Assembly (NCBI GenBank): GCA_049724395.1
Contig: JAUGWO010000080.1
Span: 62,001 to 92,674, forward strand
Source: Spongospora subterranea f. sp. subterranea
Taxonomy: Eukaryota
DNA length: 30,674 nucleotides
Direction of reading: 5' to 3'
The notes under the pieces are model-generated. The model ran no database searches. It saw only the letters and a program-made list of their open reading frames with translations, and had not been told where the DNA came from. Shown piece by piece: positions 20,880-30,674 of the stretch; the first letter of the stretch is position 1, and each line of letters begins with the position of its first letter. Made by a program: the position numbers and the translations under genes.

Positions 20880-22030
20880 GCGATGTCAAGTGAGGGGATG
20901 GGAAGCGGGAGTAATAGACCCGAGGGTTTGCGGCGAGGAACTTTCGAACGCGCACAGACGTCACAAGATCGAACAAAAGAGGTGTAACCATCTTTAGCAT
21001 ACCTGGTCAGGTAAAATTGCGAGCAATTGATTCGATTTGATTTCAAAATGTCCTGCCAATGGAGAATCATGACAGGATGAAAGGATATTCAAACGCCTAA
21101 CTGCATCATCGACCACTTCAACTTCGGGGGGAGGAATGGGTCATAGCATTAATAAAGCGAGAACTACGAAAAACGGGTTATCGACGGGTTGATGATCGAC
21201 GGCCGATAATTCAGGACGACGGGACAATGCATCAGGTTTGTGAGAGAGAGATCCGGATCGGTGACGAATGACGAAGTGGGATTGAGACAACAACAATGAC
21301 CAACGAGCGTGACGCCGATTCAACAGTTTAGTTGTCATGAACCATTCGAGGTTCTGTGATCGCTCAACACCAAAATTAAGGATCCAGGTAATGCCTTTAA
21401 GCCTGAAAAGCTGTCACGATGGAATTAGCTCTTTATCTGAATCTCATAATTTAATTCCGATGGTGTAAATTTGCGAGAGTAAAACGCCACAGGGTGTAAT
21501 CCATCTGTGTGTATTCGGGACAAGATTGCACCAACTGCGTAATCGGACGCACCTGATTCGACAATAATGTCCAATTCAGGATCAAAATGGCGTAAAATAG
21601 GCGCCGATACAAAAGCTGACTTCAAAGTCTGAAATGAAGCATCAGCGCTAGTAGATGGCATCCTTCTTGGTCAACGAAAACAGTGGGTTGGTGATGCGTG
21701 AATAATTTGGAATAATCCACGATAGAAGTTCGCAAAACCCAGAAACGATTGAAGCTCTTTGACCGAATTCGGGATTGGTCAAGATATTATTGCTGAAATA
21801 CTTTCTGGATCCATGAGTAAGCCGCGAGAGGACAAGCGGAATCCTAATCTCGGAGACATGGAATACACATTTGCTCAGTTTGGCGAAGAGGTTGTGCTTT
21901 CGTAGAATTTGCAAAACAGTGTGAACGTGTTGAACATGTTCAACACCGTCCGGGGAGAAAATCAACGTGTTGCATTAATACACAACAACGAATCGATCAA
22001 TGCACTCATGTAGATGTCGTTCATGAATCG
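20880..22030 (-). mobile_element. Degenerate Ty3/Gypsy pol fragment (RT C-terminus, RNase H, integrase Zn finger)
   Basis: RFVVVY*CNTLIFS (destroyed YLDD), LFAKLSKCVF, LRHFDPE...[11 protein letters not shown]...[17 protein letters not shown]...DALSR and FVRSCDVCARSK...GLLLPLPIP. The order is RT-RH-INT, with many frameshifts. Confidence 0.92.
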
Positions 22031-22800
22031 GTGAAAACAAGCGGGTGTATTTGCCAAGCCAAAAGGCATCACCAAATATTCAAACAAACCGACTTTTGTC
22101 CTGCATGCAATTGTCCACTCATCGCCTGCCCTGATGCGAACGAGATCTTATTTCGCCATCCCGATCCTATTTACTTGGACAAGGCAACACGAGAGATTAT
22201 GCAATTCATGGAACATGCAGGCTTCGTTATCAACGTGGGCAGCAAAAGTATTCTCATCCCAACTCAACAAGTGTCTTTTTTAGGATTGATTCTGAATACG
22301 CCGCGTTTAACTATTGAAATCCCAACCGACAAACGTACTGCATACGACCATTCGATCCGTTCCTTATTACGACAGAAGTATCCGTCTGTTCGAGATCTTG
22401 CTACCCTTCGCGGCAAATCAAATTTTGTTAACATCTCATCTTCTAGGGGGCAGGCATCTTTGTCAGCACTACATTCACTCATCGGATCCCCAAATTGGCG
22501 ACATCGCGAATATCGTCGCTGGACTGTAGACGCTCGACTCTGTCTACACGATTGGATCCACCGTCATTTATTCCTTGTGGTGGGCGAACTACGCGCAGCT
22601 CAGAAGGCTATTCACGCTCTTCCATGTTGATAACATGGCAGTTCTAGGGATGCTGCAATCAGGACATTCTTCTTCCGTCCAGTGCGCTTCTATTTTACGC
22701 GCAATCCACCGTCGAATCCATATGCAAGCATTGTCTGTGCAATTCCGGTACATTCCTACGACCACTAATTGTATTGCTGACTCTTTGTCAAGACAGCAAC
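22031..22800 (+). mobile_element. DIRS-like (tyrosine-recombinase retroelement) RT/RNase H fragment, internally deleted
   Basis: GFVINVGSKSILIPTQQVSFLGLILNT...IEIPTDKR matches the DIRS-type RT end. ELRAA...DNMAV...GHSSS...YIPTTTNCIADSLSR matches a DIRS-type RNase H. The YxDD motif is degraded. Confidence 0.8.
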
Positions 22801-22869
22801 GCTATTTTATGAGAAAAAGGAAGGTTTTCCACGATTATCGTCCTGTTTGGGAATGCTGTTTTTCTTGAT

Positions 22870-24870: not shown

Positions 24871-25682
24871 GGCACTCCTATTCCATACCAACGCTAATTC
24901 AACAATTGCAAACGCAGATCTTGGATCTACAAAGCCAACTTGCAGATTTGCAAAGCCAACGATCCGAATCAGGTACCGACATGGTCACAACTCTGGCCTG
25001 CATACAAGTTGAGGTATCGGAATTACAAGTGCGAATCCCTACCCCAAACCCCACAAGCGCTTCCACAGCCTCCTATTGCTCAGTTGCCGAAACCCAACCA
25101 GTTTTCTGGCGATCGCAGTAAATTCCGACAGTGGTTCTGCCAAGTCACTAACTACCTGAGAATCTACAGTACTGGATATACATCAGACACGATGCGAGTA
25201 GGGCTGTTCAGTAGGGCTGTTCACCAGCCTCATGACCGAGTCGGCGCTCCTATGGCTGATGCCCTATGTTGAATCCAAGTCTTATATTTTAGATAACTTT
25301 GAGGGATTTATCGAAAACTTAAAACTTGATTCTACCTCAATCACAGTTCGACGTTATTCAACTTGGTTATGATTGGCTACAAAAGTTCAATCCACAGATA
25401 GACTGTCGAACTGGCAAGTTGAGAGTTTCTCATGCTGAATCCCCAGTCATTCCATTAGCATTAATGTCAGTCATCCACATGACCTCAAGGCCTGGTGCGA
25501 CGGTTTGGGGTAGGGATTCGCACTTGTAATTCCGATACCTCAGCCTGTATGCGGGCCAAAGTTGTGACCATGTCGGTACCTGATTCGGATCGTTGGCTTT
25601 GCGATTCTGCAAGTTGGCTTTGTAGATCCAAGATCTGCGTTTGCAATTGTTGAATTAGCGTTTGGTATGGAATAGGAGTGCC
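24871..25682. repeat. Inverted repeat: arms 24871-25050 and 25502-25682 (gag 5' region)
   Basis: Manual alignment gives 6 substitutions and 1 indel over about 180 bp. Confidence 0.97.
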
Positions 25683-26634
25683 TGGACGATATATTGATAT
25701 ATTCTGATACAGAAGCTGATCACATAAATCACGTTCGCTCCGTCCTGACAGTGTTACGGGAACAAGGTCTGTACGTTGAAATGGAAAAATGTGCTTTCCA
25801 CGCTTCAGAGGTTCAATTTTTTGGATATATAATCTCCAACAAATGTGTCAAAATGGACCCAGCCCGTGTCGATGCTGTTAATTCGTGGCCCCAACCCCTC
25901 TTTGTCAAGGAGTTTTACTTCAATCATTCTTAGGATTTGCAAATTTTTATCGACAATTTAATTCCAATTTCGCATCAACCTGTATGCCTTTATATGAACT
26001 AAGGTCTGACCACGTGGCCTCTAATGAATGTGGGAGAGCGAGCTGCTTGCAGTAAACTCGGAAACTCTGGATAGGCAATGTAATCAGGTGGGGGCAGGTC
26101 CCATTCGGTGTGGTCGGTAGGACAGATTATGTTGCTGAATCCAGCTGGTCTAATAGGTTCCTTCATTGGATACCCAAGCTACTTGTAGCGGCCAGGCGGA
26201 AGTAGGGAAAGTCTGGTAGTACACAGGCTTACTCAACCCATAAGAACCCGCGATCCTTTGTATACCATACCATACCATTTATATGAACTAACAACAAACA
26301 TGCAACCTTCAAGTACACTCCCCAATGTCAAATTTCCTTTCACTCCGCAATCAACTGCGCAAGTCACGAATCGACGAGATGCTGGCGGCGATCGATCGTG
26401 TTGCTGGTGGTGGGGAGTCGGCTGGCACCAAGGGTGACAGTCTAGGGATGCCTGGCGGGGTAGTCTTTCCTGACGATGACTAGAACTCTGAAGTGTCAGC
26501 TGCACTCCCAATTTCCTCTGAGTCTTCAGAGCGGGCCAAATTTTAGAACAGCCGTCAAAAGCTGTTCTCGCCGTTCATTGAATACTTATCATTGGTATGA
26601 GATGAGCGGACAGGTCCTTGTTGTCAATTCCTGC

Positions 26635-26700
26635 ACTGACGGAAAATATTTTGGAAGTCGGTACTTTACTGACAGAAAAATTATTAGAAGTCGGTGCTGT
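26635..26700 (+). repeat. Two degenerate 33-bp tandem units
   Basis: actgacggaaaatattttggaagtcggtacttt / actgacagaaaaattattagaagtcggtgctgt. Confidence 0.8.
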
Positions 26701-26713
26701 ATGAATGACTCAA

Positions 26714-26863
26714 CCGACAATACTACCATTTACTGGTGGCTATCCGACAATATTACCATTCTTTGGTGGCAATCCGACAATACCACCATTTATTGGTGGC
26801 AAACTGACAACACGACCATTAATTGGTGGCAATCTGACAATAAAACCATTTATAGGTGGCAAT
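26714..26863 (+). repeat. Five tandem 30-bp units in the LINE 5' region
   Basis: Consensus cYgacaataNNaccattNNNtggtggcaat, with units starting at 26714, 26744, 26774, 26804 and 26834. Confidence 0.97.
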
Positions 26864-27229
26864 GGCCAAAAGGAACACTAGTGACACTAAAACTATACTG
26901 GAAGTACAATGCCGTCATTTGGTGGAAACTACTGGTTAAGACGAAATATGGTCCCATTAACAGGGCCAAACAAGGGCCACAATTAACATCAACAACTATT
27001 AACAAGACTTTGACAGGAACAGTATACACGCCAAGTAATTGCACTTTTTGGTGGAAGCATAAGCGAACGACAACAACAAAAACACGGAATAATGCTCCTA
27101 ATAATAATGACATACAAACGCACAGAAGTAAGAGCAACACACATAAGAGGACACAAAACATTAATGAAACACATAATACTGACAAAAGTAAAACAATTAA
27201 GACAACACTACGACAAAATTACATAGGGA

Positions 27230-28264
27230 TAATGAATGCAGACGTGACAAATAATATCAGCACAATGAACGAATCCACAATAAGTAACGTCCCACAGATG
27301 ACTAAATGCCGTTGTATTAGGGGAATCGGCATACTATACGTGCCAGTGTCGCTCTCAGAATACATCCGTGGCGCAATTAAACCACGAACAGAAACGCTTC
27401 ATCTAGGCATCATGCAGAACGTTCCAATGGAGACCGAAACCAACAAGGAACAAACAATAGGAAGAAAACATCCCAGGGACAGGGCAACCACATCTAATGC
27501 AACATCCGATAAGACCAAAAAGATGAAGGACAAATTCATACCACGGTCAATGATGAATTATAACGGAAGCGATTTTAATGCCCAAAACACAACATGAAAT
27601 AGAAACTCTATTACCGGAACTCATCCAAGAAATACCTTGGCTCATGGCTAAACTAAAGAATGACGTTACGCCAATGGGAACAGGCACGATAATCATCAAA
27701 GGGCTAAAAATAGGTACACACCGAAGAATAGTTAAAAGAATAGTAACGAAACTAACTCCAACCACTCAGGACAATACAAAGCCCTGCAACAATACTGTGG
27801 GAGAAAAGGAATTCGAATCAGACCTACATCAGAGTCCAAACACGACACCAGCCGTAAAGTTATTGTGCAAGGCATCCCACCATACCTTATTAAAAACGGA
27901 ATGGCGATACAAGGCTGGAAAGGAAAACAACCGGACAAAGCTACCCAAATTGGAAGCAACACTACCATGTTCCAATTCCAGATGGCAAGTGATGCGAAGC
28001 AATGTCTATCGCAGGGAACGGTACATATATTCGGGAAACAATACAAGCCCCTGGCCTTCCAAAAAAAGGAAATACGAGTATGTGAAACATGCTACCAGAT
28101 TGAGTGCCTCCAAAAAAAACAAATGTGGCAAGATTGCCTGCTACATATGCAGTGAAGCTCACATGGCCGACTCATGCCCAAAGAAGAATAAGGATGAGCC
28201 TAAGTGCATTACATGCCAGGAAGAGGGACATTGGGCCATCCAATGCCCATGGCGTTACCTGTAA
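27230..28264 (+). pseudogene. LINE ORF1 (gag-like, RRM-like region plus three Cys/His knuckles), disrupted by frameshifts; start uncertain
   Basis: KVIVQGIPP...RVCETCYQIEC lies in one frame and CYICSEAHMADSC plus CITCQEEGHWAIQC in the next, switching at the A8 run 28112-28119. Further shifts are likely near 27556 and 27735-27800. Confidence 0.8.
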
Positions 28265-28528
28265 ATCAAGATTCAATAAAGCAAATATGACAAAGGGCCA
28301 CAAAAAGATGAGCAAAATGCAAATTGAATTTACCTACACTGAAAGCCGCAGTTATGACATGCTGAAGGAGTACACAAAGACTGGCAGATTGTGGTTTGTT
28401 TCATTATACAGGAAGGCCAAGATCTTATATTGCACCCCGAAATTAGATGCCGTCCCCTGCGACAACCAATTCTTCGCATCACTCGATACCTGGAATTGGA
28501 ACATGGTAAAATTGTTTCCAATTAGGGT
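27943..28528. repeat. Diverged gapless inverted repeat within the LINE: arms 27943-28060 and 28411-28528
   Basis: 118-bp arms, 91/118 identical by manual codon-wise alignment, no indels. Confidence 0.95.
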
Positions 28529-30674
28529 GTGGTTGAATGTAAAACGTGGGAAAAAACCAAATAACAGCAAAGTATGGAAAACAAGTGAAAACAAAACACT
28601 GGAACAATCAACACCATACAGTGGCGGAAACAGCAAAGGACTCCATACATCATGCATGGTGGAGATAAAAGAATACGAAATACGTATTTAGAGATGTCAT
28701 CGGAATAGGAAACTGCGCTTTCGAGGCGATCAGAGCATCAGGAGCGATCCCGAATATGACAGTGCAAAACCTACGAAAGGAAATATGTGAATTCGCTAGA
28801 AATCCTGAGCAAGGAAGAACCATTGCTAAAAAATTAAAACCCTATATAGGATCGCTGCCAAACAATGACAGCATAGGATTGGATGAATATCTGAATATAA
28901 TGAGTATCGATAGACAATGGGGAGGGTTGTTCGAACTCACCATAGCTGCATACAAATTTAAAATGAACATAATAGTAGTAAGTCAGACGAATCCAACGCT
29001 CATAACAGATATACAGAAATGGATAGAGAACACGTTACCAAAGTCACGTGATGTAACACCATGGACCAAAACAATTTACTTGTTACATCACAAGCATGGG
29101 AAACCATCAACACCAATGAGACATCAAGACTTGAACCATTATGGGACCCTTTTCCCTATAGAAACAACGGCTAGTGAATGGAATAATAGCGGTATGATGA
29201 CACCAGACAAATGTGACCTTTACATTGATCAGTACAAATTATCAAACAAAACAGACAGCTCAGCAACGCAAAATGTTAGAAATGATAATTCCAAACAGCA
29301 ATTTATGATAAAACCATCGCTAGACAAAACGATGAGACACGATAAAAACATAAATCCGAAAAGGCACCGATCATGCGACGATTCCGACGACCAACCCACT
29401 CAACGTGCCAAATATGAAAAACATCAAACGCACTCTAAACAAATCTGCACAAAAAAGCGAACATTGCTGATAGATAAGGACGGCACTGAAACGCAGTATA
29501 AAAGACGGCTTACCAACAGCGAGCGCCAATGCAAAGAAGTTGCAGACAATGAAACAGCGCGAAAAACAGCCTCAAAACAGACACCAACAAGCCAGATGAG
29601 CCACTACGAACTCACCAAATTGATCGGAAATATACTAGAACCAGACAACAAGGAAGACAATATAGCAGACACATCGGACAAAAACCTGAACGGAACTAAA
29701 ACACACAAACGGCAGATGAAAATAACTCAATATTTCATGAAAACCAATACCAAAACCAGAAAAATAAGAACAACCAGGAGCTTAAAAATCGCTCAATGGA
29801 ACGCCTGCTCCCTAAGCGAACAAAAATCAAAAGAACTGTCTCGATTTGCTAACACCAACCGCGTCGATGTAATATGTATATCAGAACTTCACCATAGACG
29901 CCAAGTAGACGATTTCCCAAACCACGAAGCCGATGACCGGTACACCCAAGCTGGAATTTTTTGGAGGGACCATGTAAATGTAGATGTGATGCGCATTCCT
30001 GCAATACAAACGTTTGGGAACGACGGAATCATGACACAAATAGTAAAAATATATAGTGAAATGATATTAATTCACATATATATACCACCGGATATAGATC
30101 GAAATACTAGAAAAACATATTGGAAACAAATCGGCAAATTCGTAGAAATGCGAGATGAACCGATACTTCTAACAGGTGACCTCAACACCAAAGATAGACG
30201 GTTTGGAATCCACCATGACGAAACTCACAAATACCTAGACAGCATATTGGAAGAATGCAAATTGATGAACAACCCGGAACGCCCAACAAGAGGAAACAAC
30301 TCATTAGATATCACCATTGCCAATCGACAGATGGCAAAGGAGATCTTACAATGGGACGTGCACGCAGAGCTAGGCAGTGACCATTCACCGACAACAATAG
30401 ATACTACAATTAGAAGAAAATCGACGAAAGGATTCCCCCTAGCCGTACACAGAACCATAATTGACACACGAGCTCATAATGAGTAACTGAAGAGGAACTG
30501 CAGAATGTTGAAAGCAAGAACATGGGACTAACAGCTTTCATTGACCTATTGCAAAATAGCATTAAGCACAAATATGTTAGACAGAATAGATGCAAATTCT
30601 GGACCACGAAACTCAAAATTGCGTTAAACTTGCGAAATAAACTCAAGCGCAAACACCAGGAAGCCATACTGAAA
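28287..30674 (+). pseudogene. LINE ORF2: N-terminal extension, OTU-like cysteine protease, PIP box, APE endonuclease (RT outside window); frameshifts near 28667 and 30481
   Basis: OTU: VIGIGNCAFEA (Cys 28714-28716), EYL..M....WGG..EL and NHY (His 29137-29139). APE (29782-30390): IAQWNACSL, DVICISE, IYIPP, LTGDLN, PTR...LDITI and LGSDH. The post-endonuclease FWTTKLK...RNKLKRK continues in a shifted frame. Confidence 0.88.

What the first reader, a model, noticed from the sequence alone, without database searches (positions are those of the whole stretch)
29713..29736. Canonical PCNA-interacting PIP box between the OTU and endonuclease domains
Seen: QMKITQYF sits in a basic, low-complexity linker about 15 aa before the APE domain and fits Qxx[ILM]xx[FY][FY] exactly. 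Established: human L1 ORF2p uses a PIP box located after the endonuclease, and PCNA ubiquitination controls the choice of damage-tolerance pathway. Inference: an OTU-PIP-APE arrangement could tether a deubiquitinase to PCNA at the nick or replication fork and strip ubiquitin repair signals during target-primed reverse transcription. I do not recognise this module as described.
Basis: partly seen in the sequence, partly recalled or inferred. Interest (0 to 1): 0.8.

Follow-up and report, generated by a model that had tools for sequence, protein, structure and literature searches.

The report
PCNA-docking motif in protist LINE retrotransposons
A jumping gene (LINE retrotransposon) in this protist genome carries a short motif, kept across most of its family, that likely docks its DNA-cutting and copying enzyme on the cell's replication clamp PCNA, and this lineage adds a predicted ubiquitin-type protease whose target is unknown.

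Summary
The motif is real. QMKITQYF lies at 29713-29736, in a disordered linker between an OTU domain and the APE endonuclease of a LINE. It is conserved beyond chance. Among 32 relatives in one APE clade, 19 have a strict PIP box 13-45 residues before APE (0.07 expected) and 29 a relaxed one, while the spacer is about 12% identical. No OTU was found in the other 31 rows, so the PIP predates the OTU and likely docks the endonuclease/RT on PCNA by itself. PCNA binding is untested. Removal of ubiquitin from PCNA is possible but unsupported (about 0.2). Unexpectedly, ORF1 has a 56-nt intron. Spliced RNA gives the zinc-knuckle ORF1; unspliced RNA reads an overprinted frame into OTU-PIP-APE. Relative L001 has the same layout. 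In relatives a conserved RxEE...RLPPPGN block sits where this lineage has the OTU, so the OTU may instead process the polyprotein. An OTU on ORF2p has one precedent. My searches found no description of a pre-APE PIP. Verdict: new variant of a known kind, interest 0.66.

The parts
29713..29736 (+). PIP box QMKITQYF (P0001 residues 349-356)
   Evidence: identical in the majority contig of run X4 (record 15, 0 differences)
28672..29193 (+). OTU-like cysteine protease; catalytic Cys codon 28714-28716 (GIGNC), His codon 29137-29139 (NHYG)
   Evidence: Pfam PF02338 E 3e-6; model pLDDT 89.6; Foldseek to vOTU, OTUD3, Otu2 at E 3e-6 to 6e-6; motif positions
29194..29712 (+). Disordered linker of about 175 residues between OTU and PIP
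   Evidence: FoldIndex; about half as long in P0039; diverged subfamilies stop aligning just upstream of the PIP (loose ends 29689-29709)
29737..29781 (+). Variable basic spacer of 15 residues between PIP and APE
   Evidence: 13-45 residues in relatives, mean 12% identity; 11 listed variants, 9 non-synonymous taken singly
29782..30390 (+). APE endonuclease with motifs QWNAC, ISELH, HIYIPP, TGDLNT, SLDIT, GSDH all present
30426..30674 (+). Frame break in the window copy (30426-30487 differs from short-read contigs), then the start of the APE-RT linker; window ends before RT
   Evidence: tables 3-4; (tblastn of P0010 continues in another frame)
26449..27713 (+). ORF1 exon 1, the shared N-terminus of both products (start codon inferred); includes 30-nt tandem repeats; single extra letters at 26466 and 27565 against the contigs
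27714..27769 (+). 56-nt intron GT...AACTAAC...CAG, phase 1, itself free of stops in the read-through frame
   Evidence: spliced joint in run X3 only (depth 56.9; 0 in X4, X13, X17); phase check and homologous donor in L001
27770..28264 (+). ORF1 exon 2: weak DUF4283 (RRM-like, recalled) stretch and three Cys/His knuckles; overprinted by a stop-free second frame that leads into the OTU
   Evidence: similar to L001 ORF1 (E 1e-6)
28265..28671 (+). Read-through segment before the OTU; holds an inverted copy of an ORF1 piece (28399-28528) and the only GG outside the OTU fold (YSGGN)
26340..30674 (+). The LINE as a whole (5' end near 26340-26392; 3' part beyond the window)
   Evidence: flat contig cover from about 26390 to the window end in X4; contig starts

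Best explanation
QMKITQYF is a family-wide PIP box that likely docks the LINE's endonuclease/reverse-transcriptase protein on the host clamp PCNA; it predates the OTU domain, which this lineage added in front of it and whose substrate is untested. Shown: the motif, its conservation against a variable spacer, the single OTU-PIP-APE frame, the OTU fold with Cys and His, and a spliced form of ORF1. Inferred: spliced RNA makes abundant ORF1 protein, and unspliced RNA makes a long polyprotein (ORF1 N-part, overprinted frame, OTU, PIP, APE, then RT as in relatives). Also inferred: the PIP, on a flexible 13-45-residue leash, holds APE and RT at PCNA-loaded DNA such as replication forks, where nicking and target-primed reverse transcription would start. 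The OTU is likely an active protease. It would either free the enzyme from the polyprotein or travel with it and cut ubiquitin from nearby proteins.
For: Clade of 34 APE rows with SH-aLRT 99 (81 rows, quick tree). Of 32 rows with 28 or more upstream residues, 19 are strict (shuffle mean 0.07, maximum 2 in 5,000) and 29 relaxed (mean 2.4, maximum 9). Outgroup: 0 of 12 strict. Downstream sequence: 1 strict hit in 27,403 residues. Median pairwise APE identity is 37%; collapsed at 55% identity, 11 of 20 groups are strict and 17 of 20 relaxed; among rows with APE-only score of 100 bits or more, 19 of 30 are strict. Positions 2, 3 and 6 vary and the spacer varies in length and sequence. In-genome variants: 3 of 25 listed changes fall in the motif, one silent and two at free position 6, against 9 of 11 non-synonymous in the spacer. 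In relative P0018 the motif has pLDDT about 30 with a short helix at positions 4-8, while APE scores 72-94, so no packing on APE is predicted (9-row alignment). L1 needs PCNA and prefers S phase and lagging-strand templates (PMC10830420, PMC12503042 passages).
Against: No binding data of any kind. The canonical L1 PIP shows that a consensus match can mislead: it packs on palm and fingers, and a later study places PCNA binding at a different motif. 3 of 32 rows fail even the relaxed pattern (P0155, P0031, P0047). The three other OTU-lineage sequences with a motif have lost one aromatic (P0026/P0189 YL, P0039 CF, P0035 YI and YS); they may be decayed copies or weaker binders. The relaxed pattern was set after seeing the data. 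The queries contained the motif. Rows are related, and the tree is a quick search without bootstrap. Variants near contig ends are not listed by the tool, so invariance of Q1 within the genome is weakly tested. The Q codon is CAG in 4 of 4 elements with DNA (joint chance about 0.02, post hoc), so an RNA-level constraint is not excluded. Run X3 is not on record as RNA.
Confidence: 0.68

Rival explanations
1. One reading: the OTU stays attached to PIP-APE-RT and removes ubiquitin from PCNA at the insertion site, damping damage-tolerance signalling. This can hold on top of the best explanation.
For: One frame and a second such element. Cys kept in 5 of 5 other OTU lineages that cover it and His in 4 of 4. 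The linker has no GG, the usual OTU cut site (recalled), so the OTU would stay attached. A 90-180-residue leash spans about 5-7 nm. Rad18 ligase activity restricts L1 (PMC6203705 passages). The viral enzyme BPLF1 deubiquitinates PCNA (review passages).
Against: The PIP works without an OTU in the other 31 rows as far as tested. The motif is weaker in the OTU lineage. The OTU lacks the Asp of GDGNC and a polar residue two after His. In the Rad18 paper the substrate shown is ORF1p, not PCNA. Any nearby ubiquitinated protein is an equally good candidate.
Confidence: 0.2
2. The OTU is mainly a polyprotein-processing protease. It frees the PIP-APE-RT part from about 730 residues of ORF1-derived and overprinted sequence, taking over the job of the RxEE...RLPPPGN block of relatives. 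It may also be a deubiquitinase, like some plant-virus and arterivirus OTU-like proteases (recalled).
For: The unspliced frame is stop-free over 1,317 codons in four segments. L001 has one 1,891-codon frame with the same layout, and the shifted-frame double-knuckle signature occurs in 7 of 200 sequences against 0.15 in shuffles. 23 of 32 rows have the PPPG block before the PIP, 7 begin within 45 residues of APE without it, and only the window element and P0032 have neither. The block sits where 2A peptides sit in other APE elements (PMC3708506, PMC13405545). A YSGGN lies about 20 residues before the OTU. Such a role was proposed for Helentron OTUs (PMC4067079).
Against: The block is not a 2A consensus and its activity is untested. 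The GG is seen in only 1 of 5 other OTU lineages (P0063). P0032 has neither block nor OTU. The split between block and N-terminal start is partly by construction and rests on predicted starts.
Confidence: 0.35
3. The motif is an intramolecular helix that packs on APE or RT, like the L1 PIP helix, and does not bind PCNA.
For: Precedent in L1; conserved hydrophobic positions 4, 7 and 8 would also suit packing.
Against: The spacer varies from 13 to 45 residues and Q1 is kept in 31 of 32 rows (partly selected by the pattern); the model of P0018 leaves the motif unpacked (which covers only part of RT).
Confidence: 0.12
4. The motif binds another reader of PIP-like motifs (Rev1 C-terminal domain, Mlh1 or the 9-1-1 clamp; recalled), or reflects an RNA signal.
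For: W, L or M at position 8 in several rows; CAG codon in 4 of 4 elements.
Against: Q1 with I/L4 is the PCNA signature (recalled); no splice joint at this CAG among the joints listed, and the candidate branch sequence is not kept in a sister subfamily (loose ends, P0026).
Confidence: 0.1

Closest known systems
Human LINE-1 ORF2p-PCNA interaction (PIP 407-415; PUB motif in the wrist)
   Same: APE-RT non-LTR protein that engages PCNA; PCNA binding reported as required for retrotransposition (PMC10830420 passages).
   Different: Here the motif is N-terminal to APE in a disordered linker, not in the folded tower after it. Full-length relatives carry their own RNase H. The L1 PIP itself is disputed (PMC7617806 passages).
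RNase H-bearing APE retrotransposons (I group and Ingi; group label recalled)
   Same: APE-RT-RNase H-zinc finger ORF2 in relatives; ORF1 with three knuckles; Ingi has APE, RT and RNase H (PMC12278014 passages).
   Different: No 2A consensus in the window element or its clade; ORF1 present, split by an intron and overprinted by the frame leading to ORF2; not placed among named clades.
Non-LTR elements with N-terminal ubiquitin-type proteases: Symbiodinium ORF2p with OTU, Dualen/RandI with Josephin, NeSL/Utopia with Ulp1
   Same: Cysteine protease fused N-terminally to the retrotransposon enzyme (PMC13405545 section 14; PMC4640811 passages).
   Different: No PIP mentioned in what I read; different clades. 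The preprint's supplements were not seen and may show the Symbiodinium architecture.
OTU domains of Ginger1 transposons and Helentrons
   Same: Transposon-borne OTU with proposed roles in repair signalling or subunit cleavage (PMC2836005, PMC4067079 passages).
   Different: DNA transposons; C-terminal fusion or separate ORF; no PIP described in those passages.
EBV BPLF1, USP1 and Ubp10 as PCNA deubiquitinases
   Different: Unrelated protease folds (recalled). A PIP box in BPLF1 is recalled only; the primary paper was not held.
copia-type splicing (recalled, no call)
   Same: Spliced RNA gives the Gag-like protein and unspliced RNA gives the enzyme polyprotein.
   Different: copia is an LTR element; here a 56-nt intron switches frame inside an overprinted ORF1 of a LINE.

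Membership tests
Canonical PIP box | Lies in an accessible, disordered segment | tested here: met
   FoldIndex negative; pLDDT about 30 in relative P0018
Canonical PIP box | Conserved against variable flanks | tested here: met
   19 of 32 strict, 29 of 32 relaxed; weaker in the OTU lineage
Canonical PIP box | Binds the PCNA pocket | not tested
   no docking model or binding data obtained
PIP degron (CRL4-Cdt2) | TD at positions 5-6 and a basic residue 4 after the box (recalled) | tested here: not met
   TQ and N in the window; TD in 4 of 32 rows
APE-type non-LTR retrotransposon | APE domain with catalytic motifs | tested here: met
APE-type non-LTR retrotransposon | Reverse transcriptase downstream of APE | tested here: inconclusive
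   window ends before RT; present in the full-length clade members scanned
APE-type non-LTR retrotransposon | 3' tail and target-site duplication | not testable with these tools
   3' end is outside the window; no genome held
I group (RNase H-bearing) | Knuckle ORF1 plus APE-RT-RNase H-zinc finger ORF2 (recalled) | tested here: met
   ORF1 in the window; ORF2 domains in relatives
I group (RNase H-bearing) | RT phylogeny with named clades | not testable with these tools
   no named reference set; hits are unnamed
Ingi clade | No ORF1; 2A-like peptide before APE | tested here: not met
   ORF1 present; no D[VI]ExNPGP in the window or clade; definition from PMC3708506
L1-type PIP | Located after the endonuclease, in the tower | tested here: not met
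   motif precedes APE; 1 strict hit in 27,403 downstream residues
OTU deubiquitinase | OTU fold with catalytic Cys and His | tested here: met
OTU deubiquitinase | Third catalytic residue (Asp/Asn two after His) and GDGNC loop | tested here: inconclusive
   H-Y-G and GIGNC; another residue could serve; geometry not inspected
OTU deubiquitinase | Cleaves ubiquitin conjugates | not testable with these tools
   needs an assay
PCNA deubiquitinase (USP1/BPLF1-like function) | Removes ubiquitin from PCNA K164 | not testable with these tools
   needs an assay

The most novel reading that the evidence does not exclude
An undescribed LINE clade switches between ORF1 and ORF2 by splicing one small intron in an overprinted frame, frees a PCNA-docking ORF2p through a new PPPGN recoding or cleavage motif, and in this lineage has swapped that motif for an OTU that cuts itself free, stays on PIP-APE-RT and strips ubiquitin from PCNA at the insertion site.
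Probability: 0.15. Interest if true: 0.87.

Novelty: new variant of a known kind. Interest (0 to 1): 0.66.

Why it matters
PCNA use by retrotransposons is documented, in what I read, only for human L1, where the binding site is disputed. A clean, exposed, clade-wide PIP box before the endonuclease suggests that a second lineage reached PCNA independently, and it gives an eight-residue handle to test whether LINEs insert at replication forks. Transposon OTU domains have been noted for years without a known substrate; a natural OTU next to a PIP makes the two standing ideas (repair signalling against self-processing) directly testable with small domains. The intron-controlled ORF1/ORF2 switch would be an unusual way for a LINE to set the ratio of its two proteins.

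Tried and rejected
No genome is held for this window, so copies were judged from contigs of 6 public runs (X3, X4, X7, X13, X16, X17) out of 24 listed. Word-index protein searches with P0001 found nothing: OTU region among longer proteins and whole protein at near lengths. No full-length OTU-PIP-APE-RT protein was found. Locus scans: APE alignment in viral contigs, 0 of 29 candidates; OTU alignment in metagenome contigs, 0 of 180. No docking model of the peptide on PCNA was obtained, so binding stays open. Rfam gave one chance hit, and folding of the SINE-like insert and of the element's 5' end gave no signal (z 0.37 and 1.14). The idea that the element targets 26277 was dropped: that repeat is a separate insert with its own 14-bp duplication. 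A splice acceptor at the PIP's CAG was considered and found no support. The Fisher test is circular and is not used. Helentron origin was rejected by domain order. Scan notes held nothing. Atlas searches only returned OTU and APE families. PMC13534243 ('pip' was 'pipeline') and part 1 of 4 of PMC6338049 were not relevant. Rows dropped before counts: 12 of 93 APE domains as 80% duplicates, fragments with under 150 APE residues, and 2 of 34 clade rows without upstream sequence. Of 16 short fragments listed apart, 8 are strict (one is the window's own), 3 relaxed and 5 have none. Contig depth was not used as copy number or expression.

Full report
Observation. Window 29713-29736 encodes QMKITQYF in the stop-free frame 28669-30486 (P0001). 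Pfam finds OTU at residues 14-117 and APE at 375-549. The motif ends 15 residues before APE, in a basic, predicted-disordered linker. A strict match arises in 1.4% of shuffles of this protein, and the window has 3 other matches in six frames, so conservation had to decide.

What the element is. A phmmer search of 1.84 billion representatives gave 135 hits, and a profile search gave 44. Full-length relatives are APE-RT-RNase H-zinc finger proteins, so this is a LINE; the window ends before its RT. The tool labels the 99%-identical fragment P0003, and P0026, P0189, P0020 and P0198, as Spongospora subterranea; two other near-identical fragments are filed as Bacillus, likely contamination. Most other relatives come from unnamed metagenomes, so the host range is unknown. 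Short-read contigs lack the window's single extra letters at 26466, 27565, 28112 and 28667 and differ at 30426-30487, so those breaks belong to this copy or its assembly. The two main X4 contigs together span 27340-30674, with 3 and 10 gaps, and no listed gap falls between OTU and the end of APE.

Conservation of the motif. An APE-only tree (81 rows, quick search) puts P0001 in a 34-row clade with SH-aLRT 99. Of 32 rows with upstream sequence, 19 have a strict PIP and 29 a relaxed one (Q, I/L/M and at least one aromatic); shuffles give 0.07 and 2.4. The sister group has 2 strict of 12 and the outgroup 0 of 12. The spacer is 13-45 residues and 12% identical on average. Collapsing at 55% identity leaves 11 of 20 groups strict and 17 of 20 relaxed. 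Within the genome's own subfamilies, the 3 listed changes in the motif are silent or at free position 6, while 9 of 11 in the spacer change the residue. Against: 3 rows fail both patterns, and the nearest OTU-lineage relatives read YL, CF, YI or YS at positions 7-8. A model of relative P0018 leaves the motif unpacked at pLDDT about 30. PCNA binding itself is untested.

The OTU. It models at pLDDT 89.6 and matches viral OTUs, OTUD3 and yeast Otu2. Cys and His are kept in every close relative that covers them; the loop reads GIGNC and there is no polar residue two after His. An OTU profile over 189 proteins and 32 loci found no OTU in the other 31 clade rows, although only 9 have room for one upstream and the sister row P0006 has no upstream sequence. 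P0039 links an OTU end, QMKITQCF and APE over a shorter linker. P0035 has OTU and two PIP-like motifs but stops before any APE. The OTU is therefore a later gain in one branch, and the PIP is older.

How the protein is made. Run X3 shows a joint that skips 27714-27769, GT to AG with a CTAAC branch-like site; it is absent from X4, X13 and X17. X3 is not on record as RNA, so an intron-less DNA copy is not excluded. Splicing joins the ORF1 N-part in frame to the knuckle exon. Without splicing, the four segments between the single-letter differences are stop-free over 1,317 codons and lead into OTU-PIP-APE. The second frame over ORF1 exon 2 is open more often than synonymous shuffles allow (P 0.004 for the first window piece, 0.5 for the short second piece, 0.015 for L001). 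L001 has a GT at the same Gly codon, candidate acceptors 41 or 50 nt on, and one 1,891-codon frame. The shifted-frame knuckle signature occurs in the window, L001, P0007, P0014, P0166, P0191 and P0195: 7 of 200 sequences, against 0.15 in shuffles. In these relatives an RxEE...RLPPPGN block stands between the overprinted part and the PIP. It occurs in 23 of 32 rows; 7 rows start just before the PIP instead. The window element lacks it and has the OTU in that place.

Mechanism. Most likely (0.68) the PIP tethers APE and RT to PCNA on DNA, as proposed for L1; this step is inferred from the motif and its conservation. For the OTU, polyprotein processing (0.35) and removal of ubiquitin from PCNA (0.2) are both open and can coexist. 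If the cut is on the N-terminal side, at the YSGGN seen 20 residues upstream, the OTU would stay on the PIP-bearing chain, but that GG is found in only 1 of 5 other OTU lineages.

What is known. L1's PIP (407-415) lies after the endonuclease and packs on RT (PMC10830420, passages); AlphaFold3 and pull-downs point to another motif (PMC7617806, passages); a review leaves it open (PMC12503042, passages). An ORF2p with N-terminal OTU and others with Josephin are reported (PMC13405545, passages and section 14; supplements not seen). Ulp1 occurs in NeSL and Utopia (PMC4640811, passages), and OTU in Ginger1 and Helentrons (PMC2836005, PMC4067079, passages). BPLF1 deubiquitinates PCNA (PMC4865505, PMC4092849, passages). 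2A peptides precede APE in six clades (PMC3708506, passages). Ten full-text searches (mostly read as listings) showed no PIP before APE, no OTU-PIP-APE element and no account of this clade. The library lacks most subscription papers and Repbase Reports. No search addressed introns in LINE ORF1s, so the novelty of the splice switch is unchecked.

Verdict. This is a new variant of a known kind: a LINE clade with a conserved PIP box before the endonuclease, a likely splice-controlled ORF1/ORF2 switch, and a lineage-specific OTU of unknown substrate. Interest 0.66.

Noticed in passing
window 27714-27769; L001 1841-1890: Conserved small intron in ORF1 of a LINE; spliced form gives ORF1, unspliced form reads an overprinted frame into ORF2.
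   Followed up: partly
relatives, e.g. P0008, P0023, L001 near 2480-2545: 17-residue block RxEExxDxIYRLPPPGN directly before the PIP in 23 of 32 rows, often after a hydrophobic N-terminal stretch; sits where 2A peptides sit but is not a 2A consensus; possible stall, skip or cleavage motif.
   Followed up: partly
window 26003-26277: SINE-like 275-bp insert with a 14-bp target duplication (25989-26002, 26278-26291) and an (ACCAT)n tail; contig depth about 100 times the LINE's in X4; L001 ends in a similar (TTCCA)n tail, so this clade may mobilise it.
   Followed up: partly
window 28399-28528 and 27943-28072: Inverted 75%-identical copy of an ORF1 piece just upstream of the OTU, perhaps a trace of the OTU capture.
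   Followed up: no
window 26714-26863: 30-nt tandem repeats giving SDNTTIYWWQ-like units in the ORF1 N-part.
   Followed up: no
window 29713-29715; L001 2557, L002 894, L007 81: The PIP glutamine is encoded by CAG in 4 of 4 elements with DNA, though CAG is 31-50% of their Gln codons.
   Followed up: partly
window 24871-25050 and 25502-25682: Near-perfect inverted duplication (161 nt at 96%) in a retroelement-like remnant with a weak DUF4939 hit.
   Followed up: no
L002 4790-4840, L004, L009 3' ends: 3' UTRs of relatives hold a tRNA B-box-like stretch (GGTTCGAGTCC; box consensus recalled).
   Followed up: no
P0002, P0004, P0187, P0188: Pieces of this element are filed as Bacillus proteins, likely contaminated assemblies.
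   Followed up: no
P0070, P0114, P0115, P0127 and others: The closest OTUs outside the element share an unusual HH...NH[YF] tail and lack the polar residue after His; some have C-terminal parts that look transposon-like.
   Followed up: no
window 21648-22868: Decayed reverse-transcriptase remnants on both strands (weak RVT_1 hit on the minus strand).
   Followed up: no
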